DNA from: Callorhinchus milii
Lineage: Eukaryota
Length of the DNA: 64,000 nucleotides
Assembly: GCF_018977255.1 (NCBI RefSeq)
Contig: NW_024704742.1
Location: 67,954,001-68,018,000, forward strand
Reading direction: 5' to 3'
The notes under the pieces were generated by a model. It saw only the letters and a list, made by a program, of their open reading frames with translations. It had not been told where the DNA came from and made no database searches. Shown here in pieces: positions 22,912 to 39,944 of this stretch. The first letter of the stretch is position 1; every line of letters begins with the position of its first letter. Both the position numbers and the translations under genes were made by a program.

Positions 22912-23043
22912 TGTACTAGACTATATGACTATCTGTACTAGACTATATGACTATCTGTACTAGACTATATGACTATCTGCACTAGACTATATGACTATCT
23001 GTACTAGACTATATGACTATCTGTACTAGACTATATGAATATC
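22912..23043. repeat. 22-bp tandem repeat, 6 units (two more at about 23891-23931)
   Basis: TGTACTAGACTATATGACTATC repeated; the array is split by an LTR insertion. Confidence 0.95.
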
Positions 23044-23044
23044 T

Positions 23045-23887: not shown

Positions 23888-26800
23888 ATCTGTACTAGAC
23901 TATATGAATATCTGTACTGGACTATATGAATTCAAAGTTCTGATGTTGGACTAGAACGCATAATCTTCTAATTCAGAGATGAGAGTGGGGAGAATGCTAC
24001 CAACTGAGCAAGACTGACAATTACAAAGAATGTACAAAACAGAATCAGGCCACTTGGCCCAACCAGTCCATACTGGTGTTTGTACTTCACGAGTCTTCAC
24101 CCATTCCTTTAGTCTTCCCATATCCTTCTATTCCCTTGCCCTCCACGAAGGTCCAGCTTCCTCTTGAATGCATCACACTATTTGATTCAACCACTGCTTC
24201 AGACAGCAAATTATAATAATACAATAATAATCCTTGTATTTGATATAGCGCTTTTCACATCTTCTCGATGTCTCAAAGCGCTTCACAGAATAGATTCTAA
24301 AGTGAATTGACCATATATTTGTGGGTGAAACGCGGCATCCAATTGCACACAGCAGTGTTCCACAAACAGTCGTGGATTGAAATGACCAATTTATTATTGT
24401 TTTTGTTTTTGGAGGGATTATTATTAGGCGTTCTCACTAGCCCTCTTCATGGATGTGGGAGCTTGACAACTATGTTTGACAGCAATTTTTTTGGAAGGAG
24501 ATCAGCCAGGTTTCTGAGACATGCGGAAATCTATCATCATGCTTAAGGGTTGCCAAACCAAACTGAGAATTCCATGCTTCCCAAGTACACATGGAAATTC
24601 CAGAGATAAATTGTTAGAATGGAATGCGCACTCTCCATCGAGGGAAGCATCCTGCTTACCTAATTCGGGAAAGTATTAGGCACAGGTTGGCAAGAGCCAA
24701 GGCTCAGGGACCCCAGAATGCTAAAAATAACAATACAGGACTCTTTCAAGGCCCTGAAATTGAAATGAGTACATTCAAATCCTTTAGTGAAGATCCATTC
24801 GAGGGCAAGGCTGGTGTTTGACAGCCATTATCTGTGAAGCACTTTCCGACATTGACACTTTAGGCATTATATAAAATGCAAGAATTATTTGGGTAGCTGA
24901 CTTCAGGGTGTCTTCTATTTGCCTCTAAATGATGCTGTAATTCTGAAAATTTACAAACAGTAATTTAATTGTCTTCAAGTACTACTCTGAAAAAAAGGCA
25001 TTTAAAAATAATTGGGGTAACTGCAATATGTTCAAAATTAGCAAAAATACATGTTTCAGCCCTATTTCAGTGAGTGAGCCTGATTGAGACTAAGGAGTAA
25101 AATTTGTAATAGTTTCTTAACAAATTTGTTATGCTTTTATCTCAAGGAATAGATTGGAAAGACTACCATGGATTTTACACTCCAATCTCTAACTATACTA
25201 ATCTCCTCCTAACATTCTAATGTACAATGATGATCTGTTGAGCTCAATTCTCTGTGTTTGCTCCTCTAAGAATAAATAATAATAATAATAATAATAATAA
25301 TCCCTGCATTTGACACCTATCATGTCCAACCATCTCAAAGCGTTAACAGGTTTTTTTTGGTAAGACAGCTGAAACATGTGAAAACCCATCACCATGCTTA
25401 AGAGTATCCAAACCAAACAGAATTCCATGCATCCTACCAACACATGGAAATTTATTGGAATGGAATGCGGACTCTCTCCCTTGAGGGATGCATTGTGCTT
25501 ACCAAATACCAGAAAGTATTAGGCGAGGTTGGCAAGAATCAAGGCTTGGGAACCCCTAACAATAATGTATTGTGATGGTGTATTTAGTGAGTGAAATGTG
25601 GCAGCCAGTTTGTGCACACCAATATCCCACAAACAGCCACAGAATGAACGACCAATTTTATTTGGGGATTGTTGGCCAGGACAGCAGGAGATACTCCCTT
25701 CTCTGTTTCAAGTAGTGCCATGGGAACTTTAATGTCCAGCTGAACAAGCAGAGATCACGATTTAACATCTCATCTGAAGGACGACACCTGGGACAATGTA
25801 GAGCAACATTGGAGGGTCAGCATCAACTCAAAGTACCTGAAAGACAGGGGATTTAAGACATCTATTCTCTATAGATTCAATCCAGTTTGATCAGTTAGCA
25901 TTTCCTTGCTTAAACAGTTCACGCACCATAGATGCAGACAGGTTTCAGATTCTGGGTGAGGTACAGGATCAGGTGCAAAATGAGGACTGAAGGTTATACT
26001 AAGTTTTTGTGGTTTGCATACGCCAGTACAGAAAGACTCGAACCATGGTTTAGCTGGTTGCTGCACAATTTAATATCACAGTAACATCAATCCGCACGCA
26101 AATTTTTATAATTTAGTTTAGCAAGAAAATCGACGCACTCAGAAATATATAAGGAGTCCTGCTAAATATCGAACAACATTGGGGAATTTATTTTTTTTAA
26201 AAAAGAAAGCAACTTTTCCGATGAAGGAAAGCAGGCACTGGCTTTGTTGGATAATAGAGTAAAATTACTGAAATTATTTTAAATGAAATCGGGGCAGAAA
26301 CCCTCACTTATTACTCTAAAACCCCGAGAGTCGAAAAAATTATATTGGAGTAAGATTTCCCCCCATCTTATCCCTCCCCCCCTCATACAACGACGACAAC
26401 AAATTACATTTATATGGTGCCTTTCATGTTTGGAATCAGGAGGGGCGGAGGGAGGGTAGGGGTAGGAGGGTGACCGAAGGCGCGGTCGAAGAAGAGGGTC
26501 TTGAGATGGGCCTTGAAGGAGACAAGGGAATGGGGGAGGTGCAGGGACTGTGGGATGGAATTCCAAACCGTGAGGGCAGAGAGGCTGAAGGTGATGGTCG
26601 TGGATAGTGGTCAAAAACAAGGAAAAGGAATTGAAATGATAGTTCAAGCCTGCGTTTTATCGCCAAGCGCGCAAAATGCTGAGCTCCACCTTCGGATCAT
26701 GGATCAATTTCATTGTTTTTTGAAAATCGATAGTTTCATTTCCATCTGACTCACTGTCCTGGTAGATAGGTGCCCCAGCAAAGCTCCATTTTAGTCTTCA

Positions 26801-30745: not shown

Positions 30746-32633
30746 TTTAATAGGCTGTCCGTCCTTATTGATATTCTGCTTCGTACTGTTTACAACAGCG
30801 TAATGCAGTGGGACCTTATCTATTTGTGGGCACCTTAGTTTTGAGGGCAGCTCACTAACCAGTTAAATTCTTCACAGTCTACTTCGTTCATTTCAAATTC
30901 ACAGTGACCCAAATCCACAAACCTACAATCAAAGGCACCCTAGGGTAAAATAATAATAATTATTGTAATAATAATACCTCAATGTAATTGAGGTACTCAC
31001 ATGTTAGTAATAGTTGTTTGGTAGCCTTCTGTCCTCCTCAGGCATTGGTCTAAAGGAACAAACAGTTGTAATCATGAAAGGTTTTTTTTGGAAAGAAGCA
31101 ATTGTAACCTATATTTTGTATGACAATGTGTCATATCTATAAATATAATCGACAGAGTGTTACTGAACTGGGTAGCAATGGACTGCAGAGAAAGAACCTT
31201 ATAAACAGAAACTGAACCTAAAAATAAATGTTCACATGTTTGTTTTACATTTGCAAAATGTAATACATTTTTTCGTCACCTTCCATCTCCAGTGGAAAGT
31301 GTACCAATTGTACTATTCAGGAGGTTGCGAACTGTTCTAAATGGGGGCACAAAGTCACTAAATAAACATGACCTGCATTTGATGAAGCACCTTATTACAT
31401 CAAAACAACTCAAAGTGCGTCACACAAGCAGCTACAGTTGTAGGTGCTGCCACTGTTACGTTGGCAAACATGCCACTCAATCAGCCAACACAAACATCCC
31501 AACAAATGTTTTGCCCATGAAATACAGTCAATCCACTTTACAGTATATCCAGTGAAGTGCTTTGAGATGTCTCAACAATGTGATAAGGCACTATATCAAA
31601 TGCAAGGATTATTATTATAAAACCCAATGAGATATATGACCAAAAGCATCTATTTCTCGGGGAGGAACGGTTGGGGGTGAGGGAGGTAATATTAGCCAGG
31701 ACACTTGGACATTGCACTCAACTATCTAGAAATAATACCTTTGCATTGCTAAAGTCCACACTGGAACAGAAAAACTAAACAAAATACACAGTCAATCCAC
31801 TTTACAGAATATTCTGTGAAGTGCTTTGAGGTGTCTCACGACGTGACAAGGTACAATATCAAATGCAAGGATTATTATTTATTATTAAGCAGGGCTCACT
31901 TGCTAGTGCATGGAGGATAGCCTAGATTATAAGCTCAAGCCCTGCTCTCCTTAATGTGATCTACCACTACTACTCCTTTAATTTGTTATAATGCTTATCA
32001 TGTCTTTCAGATGTCTCAAAGCGCTTCACAGAATATACTGTAAAGTGAATTGATTGTATATTTTGTGGGGGAAACACGGCAGCCAATTGCACACAGCAGT
32101 ATCCCACAAACAGTCATGGATTGAGTGACTTAAATATTATCATATTAATTACAATGACATTAATGCTGTTCTGTGTCCACTCCAGGAGCTAGGCAGATAC
32201 CTTAAAAAGAGACAGCTACATGGCTGTGGGAAAAGGACATGTAAATGGGACTGAAAGGCTTGATTTTGAGGGAGCGACACAGATGCGATGGGCTGAATGG
32301 CTTTTCTTCTCTAACATAATTCGCTATGATTCTAACTCCATCCCAGAGTCTCTCCACATCTTCCCTTGCCCTTTGCCCCTCTCTTCCCACCTTTAAAGAT
32401 CTTCTGAAGATCTTTTCTTTTCAACCACACTTTCGGTCACTCTCTGCACTGCCCCAAGCCCCAGCATCCCCAAGTCTCAGAATATACGGTAAAGCGTTTT
32501 GTGGGTGATTATTGGAATTTCTGCTTATTGCTTATTGCTTATTGCTTATTAACTCTGCTTATTGGAATTTCCAATTTGACAAGCATCTTTGAGAGCATCT
32601 CTTGATAAATTCTGGGTTTTCTCTTTATAATTA

Positions 32634-33235: not shown

Positions 33236-33275
33236 CTCTTTCGGAACTGGTGTTGGCAGCGTCTCCTACGGGGTC
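33236..33275 (-). CDS. CD8A: CD8 alpha cytoplasmic exon with CXH motif
   Basis: ttttctctctccag acceptor, AG|gtcagt donor; (R)PRRRRCQHQFRK(R); CXH is the fish form of the Lck-binding CXC motif. Confidence 0.92.
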
Positions 33276-33398: not shown

Positions 33399-33509
33399 GT
33401 TTACAGTAAAGGATGGAAACGGTGACTAGAATCACCAGCAACAGGGAGGAAACGCCTGCGAGCGATGTCCAGATGATCAAGTGGCAGGAAAACCTGTCAT
33501 CTGCAATCC
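33399..33509 (-). CDS. CD8A: CD8 alpha transmembrane exon
   Basis: ttttttttgtaactag acceptor (an in-frame alternative AG lies 9 nt inside), C|gtaaga donor; (G)IADDRFSCHLIIWTSLAGVSSLLLVILVTVSILYCK resembles mammalian FACDIYIWAPLAG...LYC. Confidence 0.92.
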
Positions 33510-35009: not shown

Positions 35010-35232
35010 ACGCACACATACACAGATATACACAGACACGCAGGTACCCACAGACACACACACACACACACACACACAAATAAATACAGATACATGCACA
35101 TTCACACATAGACACAAATACAATTACAGACACACACATACACACAGACATACATACAAACACATACACACAGACATACATACAAACACATACATGCAGA
35201 AACCCACAGATACAGACACACATACACACATA
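35010..35232. repeat. Degenerate (CA)n-rich microsatellite in CD8A intron 3
   Basis: CACA/TACA/GACA repeats. Confidence 0.9.
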
Positions 35233-35378: not shown

Positions 35379-35471
35379 CTCTGCTGGGCTGGGTTGTTGA
35401 TGTCTGTGGAGCCTCAGTTTTCGGCGGGGGCAGTTTGGTGGTTGAAACCTTTGTGGCAATGGTTGTAACCT
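35379..35471 (-). CDS. CD8A: CD8 alpha Thr/Pro-rich hinge exon
   Basis: ttctctatcccaacacag acceptor, AGAG|gtacag donor, phase 1/1; (E)VTTIATKVSTTKLPPPKTEAPQTSTTQPSR, a typical O-glycosylated stalk. Confidence 0.88.
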
Positions 35472-36495: not shown

Positions 36496-37782
36496 CTATA
36501 ACAACAACAACTCAGATTTATATAGCGCCCTCCACGCTGGACGGTGTCTCAGAGCACTTTACAGTAACGGATCCCGTTAATATATGATATAGGATATAAT
36601 ATATGCTGTATCACATGTCATAATATGCAAAGCATATATTATGAAATACGGTATACAGTATTTAATAAAATATTAATCAAATATATAATATATTATATAT
36701 AATAATAATCCTTGCATTTGATATAGTGCCTTATCATTTCGTTGAGACGATTTTGCCCACAACATTTTGAGACCCCTCAAAAATATGATAAGGCGCTATA
36801 TCAAATGCAAGGATTATTATTATATATTATATGTTATAGTACAATATATTATAAACCACTCCATTACATAGCACAGTGAATGCTGGATATTAACTTATCA
36901 CTGTTTTACTGGAACCAAAAGATATAGCTTGTATTTATATAGCGTCTTTCACGAGTGGAAGGAAGTCTCAAATATATTTCAGTTGCCCCTTAACATGTTT
37001 ATTCTAGTTTTGATGATTTCAGGATCCCATTTATTATTATTTTTATTATATATTATATCTTACAACATATATTGTATTGTATAATAATGATGATAATAAT
37101 AATAATAAATGGGATCCTGGAATCAACAAAACTAGATTAAGTAGGTTTCACCTATAAAATACAAAATTCACACCAAACGCTTTGAGATGCTTCAATGACA
37201 TAATAAGGCACTATTTCAATGAAAGGCTTATTATTAGCAGTAGTAATAATAATAATAAACAATTGTGAATAAATAATAATGTATTAATAATTATAAACAA
37301 CGAGAATAAATAATAATAATTGTATTTCATACTCTTTTTGCATTTGATAACAATCCTTACATTAGAGACACTTGTTGGATATAATAATAATCCTTGCATT
37401 TGATATAGCGCCTTATCATGTCTTTGAGATGTCTCAAAGAATATACTGTAAAGTGAATTGACTGTATATTTTGTGGGCGAAACGCGGCAGCCAATTGTGC
37501 ACAACAGTGTTGCACAAACACTTATGGATTTAGTGATCAAATTATTATTATTATTATTTTTAAGGTATTATCTCTAGAAAAGTGATCTGCCAATCGACTA
37601 ACAACCAGATTCCGACTTACTGATAGGTAAACAAAGGTGTATGGAGTAAGGAAACTTGCCTAACATTTTGCCCTGCCTGGGAATCAAACCCAGGTCTCTG
37701 GCTTGTGAGGCGAGTGCTCTAACCAATACACTACAGGATTCCATGTCTATAGGCGCCTGTAAGAGCATTTCACATGTGGAAT

Positions 37783-38387
37783 TATTGCTCAGTGTGTAGT
37801 GGAGTGTCCCTGTGCTCACTCACCAGGTAATATTGCTCAGTGTGTAGTGGAGTGTCTGTGCTCACTCACAGATAATATTGCTCAGTGTGTAGTGGAGTGT
37901 CCCTGTGCTCACTCACCAGGTAATATTGCTCAGTGTGTAGTGGAGTGTCTGTGCTCACTCGCCAGGTAATATTGCTCAGTGGGTAGTGGAGTGTCTCTGT
38001 GCTCACTCACCAGGTAATATTGCTCAGTGTGTAGTGGAGTGTCTGTGCTCACTCACCAGGTAATATTGCTCAGTGGGTAGTGGAGTGTCTCTGTGCTCAC
38101 TCAGAGATAATATTGCTCAGAGTGTTGTGGAAGTGTGTAGTGGAGTGTCTCTGTGCTCACTCACCAGGTAATATTGCTCAGTGTGTAGTGGAGTGTCTCT
38201 GTGCTCACTCACCAGGTAATATTGCTCAGTGTGTAGTGGAAGTGTGTAGTGGAGTGTCTGTGCTCACTCACCAGGTAATATTGCTCAGTGTGTAGTGGAG
38301 TGTCTCTGTGCTCACTCACCAGGTAATATTGCTCAGTGTGTAGTGGAAGTGTGTAGTGGAGTGTCTCTGTGCTCACTCACCAGGTAA
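37783..38387. repeat. Minisatellite, 12 units of about 46-60 bp, overlapping the CD8A V-exon donor
   Basis: Repeated TATTGCTCAGTGTGTAGTGGAGTGTCTCTGTGCTCACTCACCAGGTAA; some units carry an extra ~12-bp internal duplication. Confidence 0.95.
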
Positions 38388-38677
38388 ATGGAAATCATTA
38401 ACCTTTCCGAACTCCAGCTTCGAGTTTTGCAGCATCAAGCAGAAATAGCTTCCAGTATCCCTCTTGGCAAATTTTTTAATTTTGAGATGTGTAACTGTAG
38501 CTTCGAAATTTGCATCCACAGAGGGTGAAACTCTCCCTAAGGGTGAAACATAGAGCAGAAACTCCGGGTTCTTTCCTTTGCTGTGTCTGAACCAGTAAAT
38601 GCGATCGTCGGCTCTCAGGCTACAAGGCACAGACACACTTGTCCCTTCCTGGACTTGTTGGGTGTTTTGGTAAGTTG
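38381..38677 (-). CDS. CD8A: CD8 alpha IgV domain exon
   Basis: Pyrimidine tract ending tttcag, donor CTG|gtgagt, phase 1/1; (A)TYQNTQQVQEGTSVSVPCSLRADDRIYWFRHSKGKNPEFLLYV...KRDTGSYFCLMLQNSKLEFGKVNDFHLP with B-strand Cys, C-strand Trp and DxGxYxC. Confidence 0.93.
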
Positions 38678-39176
38678 CTGAAATAAGGGCAAAAAAAGAG
38701 ACAGAGAGAGAGAGAGAGAGAGAAATTACCTTTTAAACCCAGAGCATAAAGTTTCTTTCAAGTTTTAAGGTTTAAAGTTTAGTCATTCTAACATATGCAT
38801 ATACATATACAGTTAAACCTCAGCTGTAGCACCACTCTCAACTCCAACTCAACAACAACAACAACAACAGCTCCACTCAAAGGACCAGAATATTTACAGC
38901 GAATTAAATTGATCGTATTGATCAGCCACATACGTGTGCAATTGCATAGTGTGGATCTAATGTATCGTGCAAACACAGTTGTTGCATGTTATGCAACATA
39001 TTTGCTGTTGTTAAAATACTTCCCCCACCCCCGGGGGAGTTGGGGTGGAGGGAGGGAGGTGATGGTTCAGGATTTGCACCTATATATTGATCCATTGATT
39101 AATTGATCGATTAATTCTATCGTCTCAGGCGAGAGAGAGAAAAAAAAAAGCACAAGTTTGCAAAGCAGTGTGTTAC

Positions 39177-39225
39177 CCCAGGGGAGAGCCATCAGCGACA
39201 GGAATCCGAGGACAAGTCTCGCCAT
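39177..39225 (-). CDS. CD8A: CD8 alpha exon 1, signal peptide MARLVLGFLSLMALPW
   Basis: ATG at 39225-39223, 16 mostly hydrophobic codons plus one base, phase-1 donor G|gtaaca that fits the V exon. Confidence 0.85.
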
Positions 39226-39339
39226 CTGACAGTGAGAGCGATAAGCCCAGGATCCGAACTGCGCAAACTTAAGCGTAACTTGTGAGTGTGTTCACCTTCT
39301 GCAGCAACTGCTGCCCAACAGCATCAGCTCAGGACGTGA

Positions 39340-39400
39340 GGTCACAGGGAGACTCACCAGAGGCTGTGAGCTCCAGAGTTTTATATTGCACGACCAATAT
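39340..39400 (-). promoter_or_regulatory. Putative CD8A core promoter with TATA box
   Basis: TATAAAA on the minus strand at 39385-39379, about 155 bp upstream of the ATG, in repeat-free sequence. Confidence 0.45.
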
Positions 39401-39944
39401 TTACTACTTATTCTATTCCATCTCTCCACAAAACAGGGGATTCTGTTTGACTTCCCAGAATGTGTGAGGAGAGAAAGAGAGAGAGAGAGAGAGAAGAGGA
39501 GGGAGTGTGAGTTGGTGAGAAATAATGTTCACTGAAGAGTTCCAACAGAAAGATTGTGATGGTGTGGATGGAATGAACCTCTGTTTTGGTATTTAATAAC
39601 AAAAGATTAACAAAACGCCAGTGCAGAAAATGACTTAGAACACACAAAGCAATTGGTGGATACCCAAAAGCAGGCTTGAAACAAATAAAATCTCATCTCA
39701 GTTATTTCTATCTATTATTAATAATAATAAACACTGGGAATAAATAATAAAAACAATTGCAATTGCTAATTTATCAAATTTGATAATATATATACAACCT
39801 GGGAGAATTGTACGCAGTCTAAAATACTACAGCCCTGAACAGATAAACTAGTTTTATTCTTGTATGATAAGGTGAGTCCACCTCATTTCTACTCGGGCTA
39901 GATTTACACTATTTACACTATTTACCCTCATACATGCATTCATA

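What the first reader, a model, noticed from the sequence alone, without database searches (positions are those of the whole stretch)
37783..38387. Minisatellite built from the CD8A V-exon 5' splice site: an array of decoy donors
Seen: the repeat unit spans the exon-intron junction. On the coding strand it reads TTACCTG|GTGAGTGAGCACAGAGACACTCC... The first unit is the real donor (38381/38380). Eight further units keep an identical CTG|GTGAGT, one has TCT|GTGAGT, one has GC instead of GT, and one is destroyed. Reading past the real donor gives CCT GGT GAG TGA, an immediate stop. Inference: use of any distal donor gives either an NMD target or a 117-aa leader+IgV-only, potentially secreted CD8 alpha. 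Copy number could tune surface CD8 by competing for U1 snRNP.
Basis: partly seen in the sequence, partly recalled or inferred. Interest (0 to 1): 0.7.

Follow-up and report, generated by a model that had tools for sequence, protein, structure and literature searches.

The report
Splice-donor minisatellite in chimaera CD8A
A short stretch spanning the end of one exon of the elephant shark's T-cell gene CD8A has been copied eleven more times into the next intron, creating spare splice signals; this layout is already known from several human and lancelet genes, where the first signal is normally the one used, and nothing found here shows it tunes CD8.

Summary
A 605-base array of 12 units (45-61 bp) starts 7 bases inside the V exon of Callorhinchus milii CD8A and repeats its donor: 8 of 11 extra copies are identical, 3 are altered. 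Any distal donor would give the same 117-residue reading frame, with a stop 297-793 nt before the last junction. The layout is a known kind: human F7, IFI6, CBS, LMNB2, PDGF, ABCA7 and lancelet 'mirages'. In F7 only the first donor is used, whatever the copy number. The early stop is ordinary (over 98% of human latent donors have one). Donor bases are not better kept than the rest of the unit (weak test). All 4 database CD8A proteins use the first donor; no short form was found. No read evidence was obtained, so low leakage is not excluded. One lead: CA-rich motifs precede every distal donor but not the real one, a possible hnRNP L silencing context. This scan has noted the same arrangement on other DNA several times. 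Verdict: most likely a tolerated minisatellite; tuning of CD8 is unsupported.

The parts
37783..38387 (-). Junction-spanning minisatellite, 605 bp, 12 units of 45-61 bp (10 distinct sequences); each unit is about 7 exon-derived bases plus the first 41 intron bases; dimer substructure (long/short x3, then deletion/full x3)
38375..38383 (-). Authentic V-exon 5' splice site CTG|GTGAGT (exon ends 38381), phase 1; U1 duplex -10.0 kcal/mol, strongest of the 5 coding-region donors
38373..38375 (-). In-frame TGA at intron bases 6-8; ends read-through at 117 aa
37818..38322 (-). Eleven distal pseudo-donors: 8 identical (GT at 38319, 38271, 38212, 38164, 38056, 38010, 37916, 37823), one TCT|GT (37869), one GC (37962), one destroyed (38104)
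38381..38677 (-). CD8A IgV exon, 297 nt (Pfam V-set 3.5e-13; best PDB sequence match is a CD8 alpha chain, 8hxs, 4.2e-23)
39177..39225 (-). CD8A leader exon (49 coding nt)
35379..35471 (-). CD8A hinge exon (93 nt); its acceptor is the partner of the repeated donor; intron 2 is 2909 nt
33399..33509 (-). CD8A transmembrane exon (111 nt)
33236..33275 (-). CD8A cytoplasmic exon (40 nt) with the RRRRCQH motif
31004..31049 (-). CD8A last coding exon (46 nt including the stop)
37671..37737 (-). tRNA-like head of a dispersed repeat (probably a SINE) 45 bases past the array; not part of the unit

Best explanation
A tolerated intronic minisatellite of the F7-IVS7/'mirage' kind. A roughly 48-bp piece covering the last 7 exon bases and the first 41 intron bases was duplicated in tandem and then grew to 12 units by slippage or unequal exchange, partly as dimers (anatomy shown; mechanism inferred). 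The spliceosome uses the first donor, because it closes the defined 297-nt exon and is met first (inferred from F7). The copies are latent donors behind an in-frame stop; rare use of the nearest one or two gives mRNA that is expected to be removed by nonsense-mediated decay (frame shown; decay inferred). CA-rich sequence just upstream of each distal donor, absent before the real one, may help keep them silent through hnRNP L (motif pattern shown; binding inferred). The array persists because it costs little, not because it regulates CD8.
For: Same anatomy as F7, IFI6, CBS, LMNB2, PDGF and lancelet mirages, which did not disturb splicing. F7 donor choice did not change with 8-12 units. 4 of 4 C. 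milii CD8A database proteins join V to hinge at the first donor; a search of 53-172 aa proteins found no short form. Units are young (mean substitution distance 0.024) and 3 of 11 donor copies have decayed; 3 of 10 inferred mutation events fall in the donor 9-mer against 1.9 expected, so no sign of donor conservation. A stop before the first distal donor is expected in 60% of random 61-nt stretches of this window, and 15 of 40 GTRAGT sites in the flanks are followed by a stop-completing dinucleotide; over 98% of human latent donors have an upstream stop. [quoted passage not shown]
Against: No RNA reads were examined. The database proteins are gene predictions, and decay-sensitive isoforms would not be listed as proteins. 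The repeated donor is strong (8 of 9 consensus positions; -10.0 kcal/mol), closer to consensus than F7's, and F7 pseudo-sites made perfect did draw some splicing. Predicted folding does not favour the real donor: opening costs 9.2 kcal/mol against 6.1-7.8 for the 8 intact copies. IFI6, CBS and ABCA7 do use one or two distal donors. The mutation-event test has little power. All splicing precedents are mammalian or lancelet, none chondrichthyan.
Confidence: 0.7

Rival explanations
1. Leaky, length-dependent drain: a measurable share of transcripts uses the nearest distal donors, or skips the hinge exon, and is degraded, so longer alleles lower CD8 alpha mRNA.
For: Eight copies match the real donor exactly and pair with U1 equally well; they are predicted to be slightly more open than the real donor. 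ABCA7: about 2% one-unit retention, raised by cycloheximide, and next-exon skipping rises with repeat length. IFI6 and CBS use two extra donors.
Against: In ABCA7 the one-unit retention itself did not change with length; in F7 unit number did not alter donor choice. Length polymorphism is not shown here. A dozen cis sites cannot deplete U1, which is very abundant (recalled, no call). The hinge exon is 93 nt, so skipping it would keep the frame and would not trigger decay.
Confidence: 0.15
2. The array acts mainly as a CA-rich protein platform (hnRNP L or LL) that changes the efficiency or retention of intron 2 with T-cell state, the donor copies being incidental.
For: 62 CACA/ACAC motifs, 10.4 per 100 nt, against 1.04 +/- 0.62 in 180 flanking bins, none as high. 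hnRNP L regulates splicing through CA elements near 5' splice sites and is discussed for T-cell differentiation.
Against: The longest pure CA run before any donor is 3 dinucleotides. Motif density in a tandem array is one unit counted 12 times. No binding or splicing data. The background bins come from both strands of the same flanks, so they are not independent.
Confidence: 0.08
3. The array is a route to a functional secreted IgV-only CD8 alpha of 117 aa.
For: The frame holds the leader and a complete V domain with both cysteines (positions 35 and 96) and ends two residues after the exon. Soluble CD8 from alternative splicing or shedding exists in humans.
Against: The same protein would come from simple intron retention with no array. 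The stop lies 297-793 nt before the last junction, well past the 50-55 nt decay rule (rule recalled). No AATAAA or ATTAAA lies in the 1080 bases after the donor to end the transcript early. No such protein in the database search.
Confidence: 0.03
4. Assembly artefact: the array, or most of its length, does not exist in the animal.
For: Tandem arrays are often mis-sized in assemblies (general knowledge; cites such a case in a lancelet draft). No independent reads were laid.
Against: 10 of 12 units are distinct, with shared derived variants and an ordered dimer pattern, which assembly duplication of identical reads would not produce.
Confidence: 0.04

Closest known systems
Human F7 intron 7 37-bp VNTR (Borensztajn et al. 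2006, PMC1557585; read: abstract, introduction, first results sections, search passages, discussion)
   Same: First unit spans the exon-intron boundary; identical donor repeated head to tail in the intron; similar unit size and copy number (5-9 natural, up to 12 tested).
   Different: CD8A donor is closer to consensus; all distal donors here lie behind a stop at intron base 6, whereas two F7 pseudo-sites are stop-free; F7 length polymorphism and donor use are measured, here neither is.
Human IFI6 (6-16) intron 2, CBS intron 13, LMNB2 and PDGF intron 4 minisatellites (seen only as described in the introduction of PMC1557585; originals not read)
   Same: Minisatellite whose first unit spans the donor junction, 10-25 copies.
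   Different: IFI6 and CBS use two extra donors; LMNB2 and PDGF only the authentic one. Which pattern CD8A follows is untested.
Human ABCA7 intron 18 VNTR (De Roeck et al. 2018, PMC5954066; passages read)
   Same: Repeat begins at the donor; use of the next unit's donor gives a decay-sensitive transcript.
   Different: 25-bp unit starting at the GT, alleles up to kilobases, shown length effect on skipping of the next exon and on expression; none of this is shown for CD8A.
Lancelet 'mirages' in Adh3 and globin genes (Ebner et al. 2010, PMC3087553; passages read)
   Same: Tandem duplication of an exon-intron boundary; many but not all copies keep the splice signal; reported not to disturb normal splicing.
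   Different: Different lineage and genes; haplotype length differences are documented there.
Latent 5' splice sites and suppression of splicing (Nevo et al. 2012, PMC3510495; passages read)
   Same: Intronic donor-like sites behind an in-frame stop, normally unused, decay-sensitive when activated by stress.
   Different: Those are dispersed chance sites, not tandem copies of the authentic donor.

Membership tests
Junction-spanning donor minisatellite (F7-IVS7 / mirage kind) | First unit spans an authentic exon-intron boundary | tested here: met
   Unit starts 7 nt inside the V exon; exon end fixed by exact match to P0002
Junction-spanning donor minisatellite (F7-IVS7 / mirage kind) | Head-to-tail units repeat the donor sequence in the intron | tested here: met
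   8 of 11 extra units keep the identical 9-mer
Junction-spanning donor minisatellite (F7-IVS7 / mirage kind) | Normal transcript uses the most upstream donor | tested here: inconclusive
   4 of 4 database proteins do, but they are predictions; no reads examined
Junction-spanning donor minisatellite (F7-IVS7 / mirage kind) | Copy number varies between alleles (VNTR) | not tested
   No second haplotype or individual was examined
CD8 alpha chain gene | Leader, single IgV, hinge, transmembrane and cytoplasmic exons; homology to CD8 alpha | tested here: met
   100% to C. milii CD8 alpha; 10 other chondrichthyan proteins named CD8 alpha at 37-43%; CQH invariant in 11 of 11 aligned
Regulated unproductive splicing element (AS-NMD switch) | Alternative event places a stop more than 50-55 nt before the last junction | tested here: met
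   297-793 nt for the 11 distal sites; rule recalled
Regulated unproductive splicing element (AS-NMD switch) | The alternative junction is actually used and regulated | not tested
   No read data obtained
Regulated unproductive splicing element (AS-NMD switch) | Sequence under constraint or conserved across species | tested here: inconclusive
   Within the array 3 of 10 events hit the donor 9-mer, P=0.28 for excess, no deficit; other species' introns are not held by these tools
Soluble CD8 alpha isoform | Stable transcript or protein lacking the membrane anchor | tested here: inconclusive
   No 53-172 aa match; no poly(A) hexamer in the next 1080 bases; absence from a protein database is weak evidence

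The most novel reading that the evidence does not exclude
The array is a polymorphic, condition-gated splice rheostat: CA-rich units recruit hnRNP L to keep eight strong distal donors silent, and when that control relaxes (T-cell activation, stress) or the allele is longer, transcripts shift to decay or to a secreted V-only chain, setting CD8 alpha dose in a cartilaginous fish.
Probability: 0.07. Interest if true: 0.55.

Novelty: new member of a known kind. Interest (0 to 1): 0.15.

Why it matters
As it stands it adds a cartilaginous-fish immune gene to a short list of genes whose splice donor has been amplified into a minisatellite. It could serve as a natural test of first-donor selection with a near-consensus donor outside mammals, and PCR or annotation across CD8A intron 2 should allow for the repeat. 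It would matter more only if array length or T-cell state were shown to change CD8 alpha output, which would make it a heritable, fast-mutating control on a T-cell co-receptor.

Tried and rejected
No whole genome is held for this window, so no genome-wide count of such arrays and no second haplotype. Sequencing-run search: 14 runs listed, no RNA holder listed on record; 4 runs of one study hold 0.61-0.72 of the words, 8 hold small shares, 2 next to none; none of this is used as evidence. No reads were laid, so donor use and array length in other animals stay open. 'Anti-donor' idea: the exon's last bases resemble the U1 5' end and could pair with a distal donor (-10.1 kcal/mol in isolation), but in context they pair with upstream exon sequence at probability about 0.98: rejected. 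RNA structure as the selector: all 12 sites are predicted mostly paired, and the array folds less stably than 40 shuffles (z = +4.2): rejected as an explanation of first-donor use. Mini-exon cassette: the only AG with a pyrimidine-rich run before it in each unit is a GAG, a rare acceptor (rarity recalled): unlikely. Intronic polyadenylation: no hexamer. Structured RNA: Rfam on 37500-39500 gave 1 match, the tRNA-like repeat head outside the array. Unit as a dispersed element: no match of one unit in the flanks searched. Short CD8A isoform: none among 53-172 aa proteins; members of 6 shark and ray clusters were all 219-252 aa. Papers on this array: none apparent in the listings (7 of 7 listed; 11 of 12 listed); titles and abstract starts only, and subscription papers and supplements were not seen. 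PMC10078293 (passages) did not bear on this arrangement.

Full report
Observation. The minus strand at 38387-37783 carries a 605-base tandem array. Parsing gives 12 units of 45-61 bp, 10 of them distinct. Each begins with the last 7 bases of the upstream exon, then the donor and about 41 intron bases. Eight of the 11 extra units keep CTG|GTGAGT unchanged, one has lost the -1 G, one reads GC, one reads CT. The 9-mer occurs 10 times in the window against 0.5 expected, and 0 of 100 shuffles reached that.

The gene. The upstream exon encodes an IgV domain (Pfam V-set) whose best solved relative by sequence is a CD8 alpha chain. It is 100% identical to proteins that the sources name Callorhinchus milii CD8 alpha; two older names in that cluster say CD8 beta-like, but the full protein matches 10 shark and ray proteins named CD8 alpha at 37-43% and shares their invariant cytoplasmic CQH motif. 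Six exons at GT-AG boundaries reproduce P0002 exactly: 39225-39177, 38677-38381, 35471-35379, 33509-33399, 33275-33236 and 31049-31004. Intron 2 is 2909 nt and phase 1.

Origin. The array ends where the original intron resumes, so it is a tandem copy of the junction itself. Units alternate long and short three times, then deletion and full three times, matching the periods 107 and 94 found by TRF: growth partly by dimers. Mean substitution distance between units is 0.024, so the array is young or homogenised. Ordered shared variants argue against an assembly artefact, though no reads confirm the length. Slippage or unequal exchange is inferred, not shown.

What distal use would do. TGA at intron bases 6-8 (38375-38373) ends the frame at 117 aa for all 11 distal sites; it lies 53-549 nt before the new junction and 297-793 nt before the last one. 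By the 50-55 nt rule (recalled) all are decay targets. There is no AATAAA or ATTAAA in the 1080 bases after the donor. The early stop is not a design feature: 60% of random 61-nt stretches from the flanks hold an in-frame stop, 15 of 40 flanking GTRAGT sites are followed by a stop-completing pair, and over 98% of latent donors in human coding introns have an upstream stop (PMC3510495, passages). It is early for this gene, though: the other four introns have their first stop at bases 108, 57, 128 or none within the stretch read.

Are the copies used? Not tested directly; no reads were examined. Indirectly, 4 of 4 C. milii CD8A proteins in the database join V to hinge at the first donor, and a search of 53-172 aa proteins found no short form. 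Both are weak, since these are predictions and decay-sensitive forms would be missing. Against easy dismissal: the repeated donor is the gene's strongest by U1 duplex energy (-10.0 against -4.6 to -8.5 kcal/mol; U1 motif recalled), and predicted folding leaves the intact copies slightly more open than the real one (6.1-7.8 against 9.2 kcal/mol). Selection: I counted 10 mutation events by eye from the alignment; 3 fall in the donor 9-mer, 1.9 expected, P = 0.28 for excess and no deficit. There is no sign that donors are being preserved, but the test is weak.

One asymmetry does separate the real donor from the copies. The array holds 10.4 CACA/ACAC motifs per 100 nt against 1.04 +/- 0.62 in 180 flanking bins. 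[quoted passage not shown] This is a lead only: pure CA runs here are at most 3 dinucleotides, and the real donor also has 8 such motifs just downstream.

Comparison with what is known. Borensztajn et al. 2006 (PMC1557585; abstract, introduction, first results sections, passages, discussion) describe the same layout in human F7 intron 7 and list IFI6, CBS, LMNB2 and PDGF. In F7 the copies are functional but only the most upstream is used, in three cell lines and with 8-12 units; only pseudo-sites with a perfect consensus drew splicing. IFI6 and CBS use two extra donors, per that introduction. ABCA7 (PMC5954066, passages) shows about 2% one-unit retention that does not vary with length, and next-exon skipping that does. 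Lancelet mirages (PMC3087553, passages) were reported not to disturb splicing. The array meets the two anatomical features of this kind; first-donor use is only indirectly supported and length polymorphism is untested. Earlier notes of this scan list eight similar arrays or gene cases in other genomes, one in a shark; they are unchecked AI notes and serve here only as leads. I saw no paper on this particular array in the listings.

Verdict. Real, correctly described, and a new member of a known kind. Most likely (0.70) a tolerated minisatellite with first-donor use and small losses to decay. A length-dependent drain (0.15), a CA-rich protein platform (0.08), an artefact (0.04) and a functional secreted chain (0.03) remain open until junction reads are counted. 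Interest 0.15.

Noticed in passing
window 39360-39352 and 39227-39226 (- strand): A tenth CTG|GTGAGT lies about 130 bases upstream of the leader ATG, and that ATG follows directly on a pyrimidine-rich AG: probably a short 5' UTR intron. A TATA-like motif sits about 25 bases before that donor.
   Followed up: no
window 33398-33276 (- strand): Intron 4 is 123 nt, in frame and stop-free; database protein P0003 (252 aa) retains it, inserting 41 residues between the membrane anchor and the RRRRCQH motif. It may be a prediction error or a real retained intron.
   Followed up: partly
window about 41307-41268 and 50804-50640 (- strand): Database isoforms P0004 and P0005 replace the leader with other first exons that look like neither a signal peptide nor, for P0005, a complete start; likely prediction artefacts or non-coding upstream exons.
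   Followed up: partly
window 37737-37671 (- strand): tRNA-like head (Rfam RF00005, 30.6 bits) of a repeat with many 82-93% identical partial copies in the window, probably a SINE, 45 bases past the array.
   Followed up: partly
window 38404-38382 (- strand): The V-exon tail resembles the U1 5' end and is predicted to form a hairpin with a donor-like exonic sequence about 20 bases upstream; on the + strand the same bases read as donor-like CAG|GTAA sites in most units.
   Followed up: partly
window, whole: A profile of 11 CD8 alpha proteins found only the CD8A exons among 2848 frames; no second IgV exon such as CD8B was detected. Long open frames elsewhere look like LINE reverse-transcriptase remnants by eye.
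   Followed up: partly
window 22912-23044 and 23888-23931: A 22-bp minisatellite (6 copies, 97% matches) with a related 2-copy repeat about 850 bases away.
   Followed up: no
window 35013-35230: A degenerate TG-rich tract of 218 bases on the coding strand, 150 bases after the hinge donor; a possible TDP-43-type element (inference).
   Followed up: no
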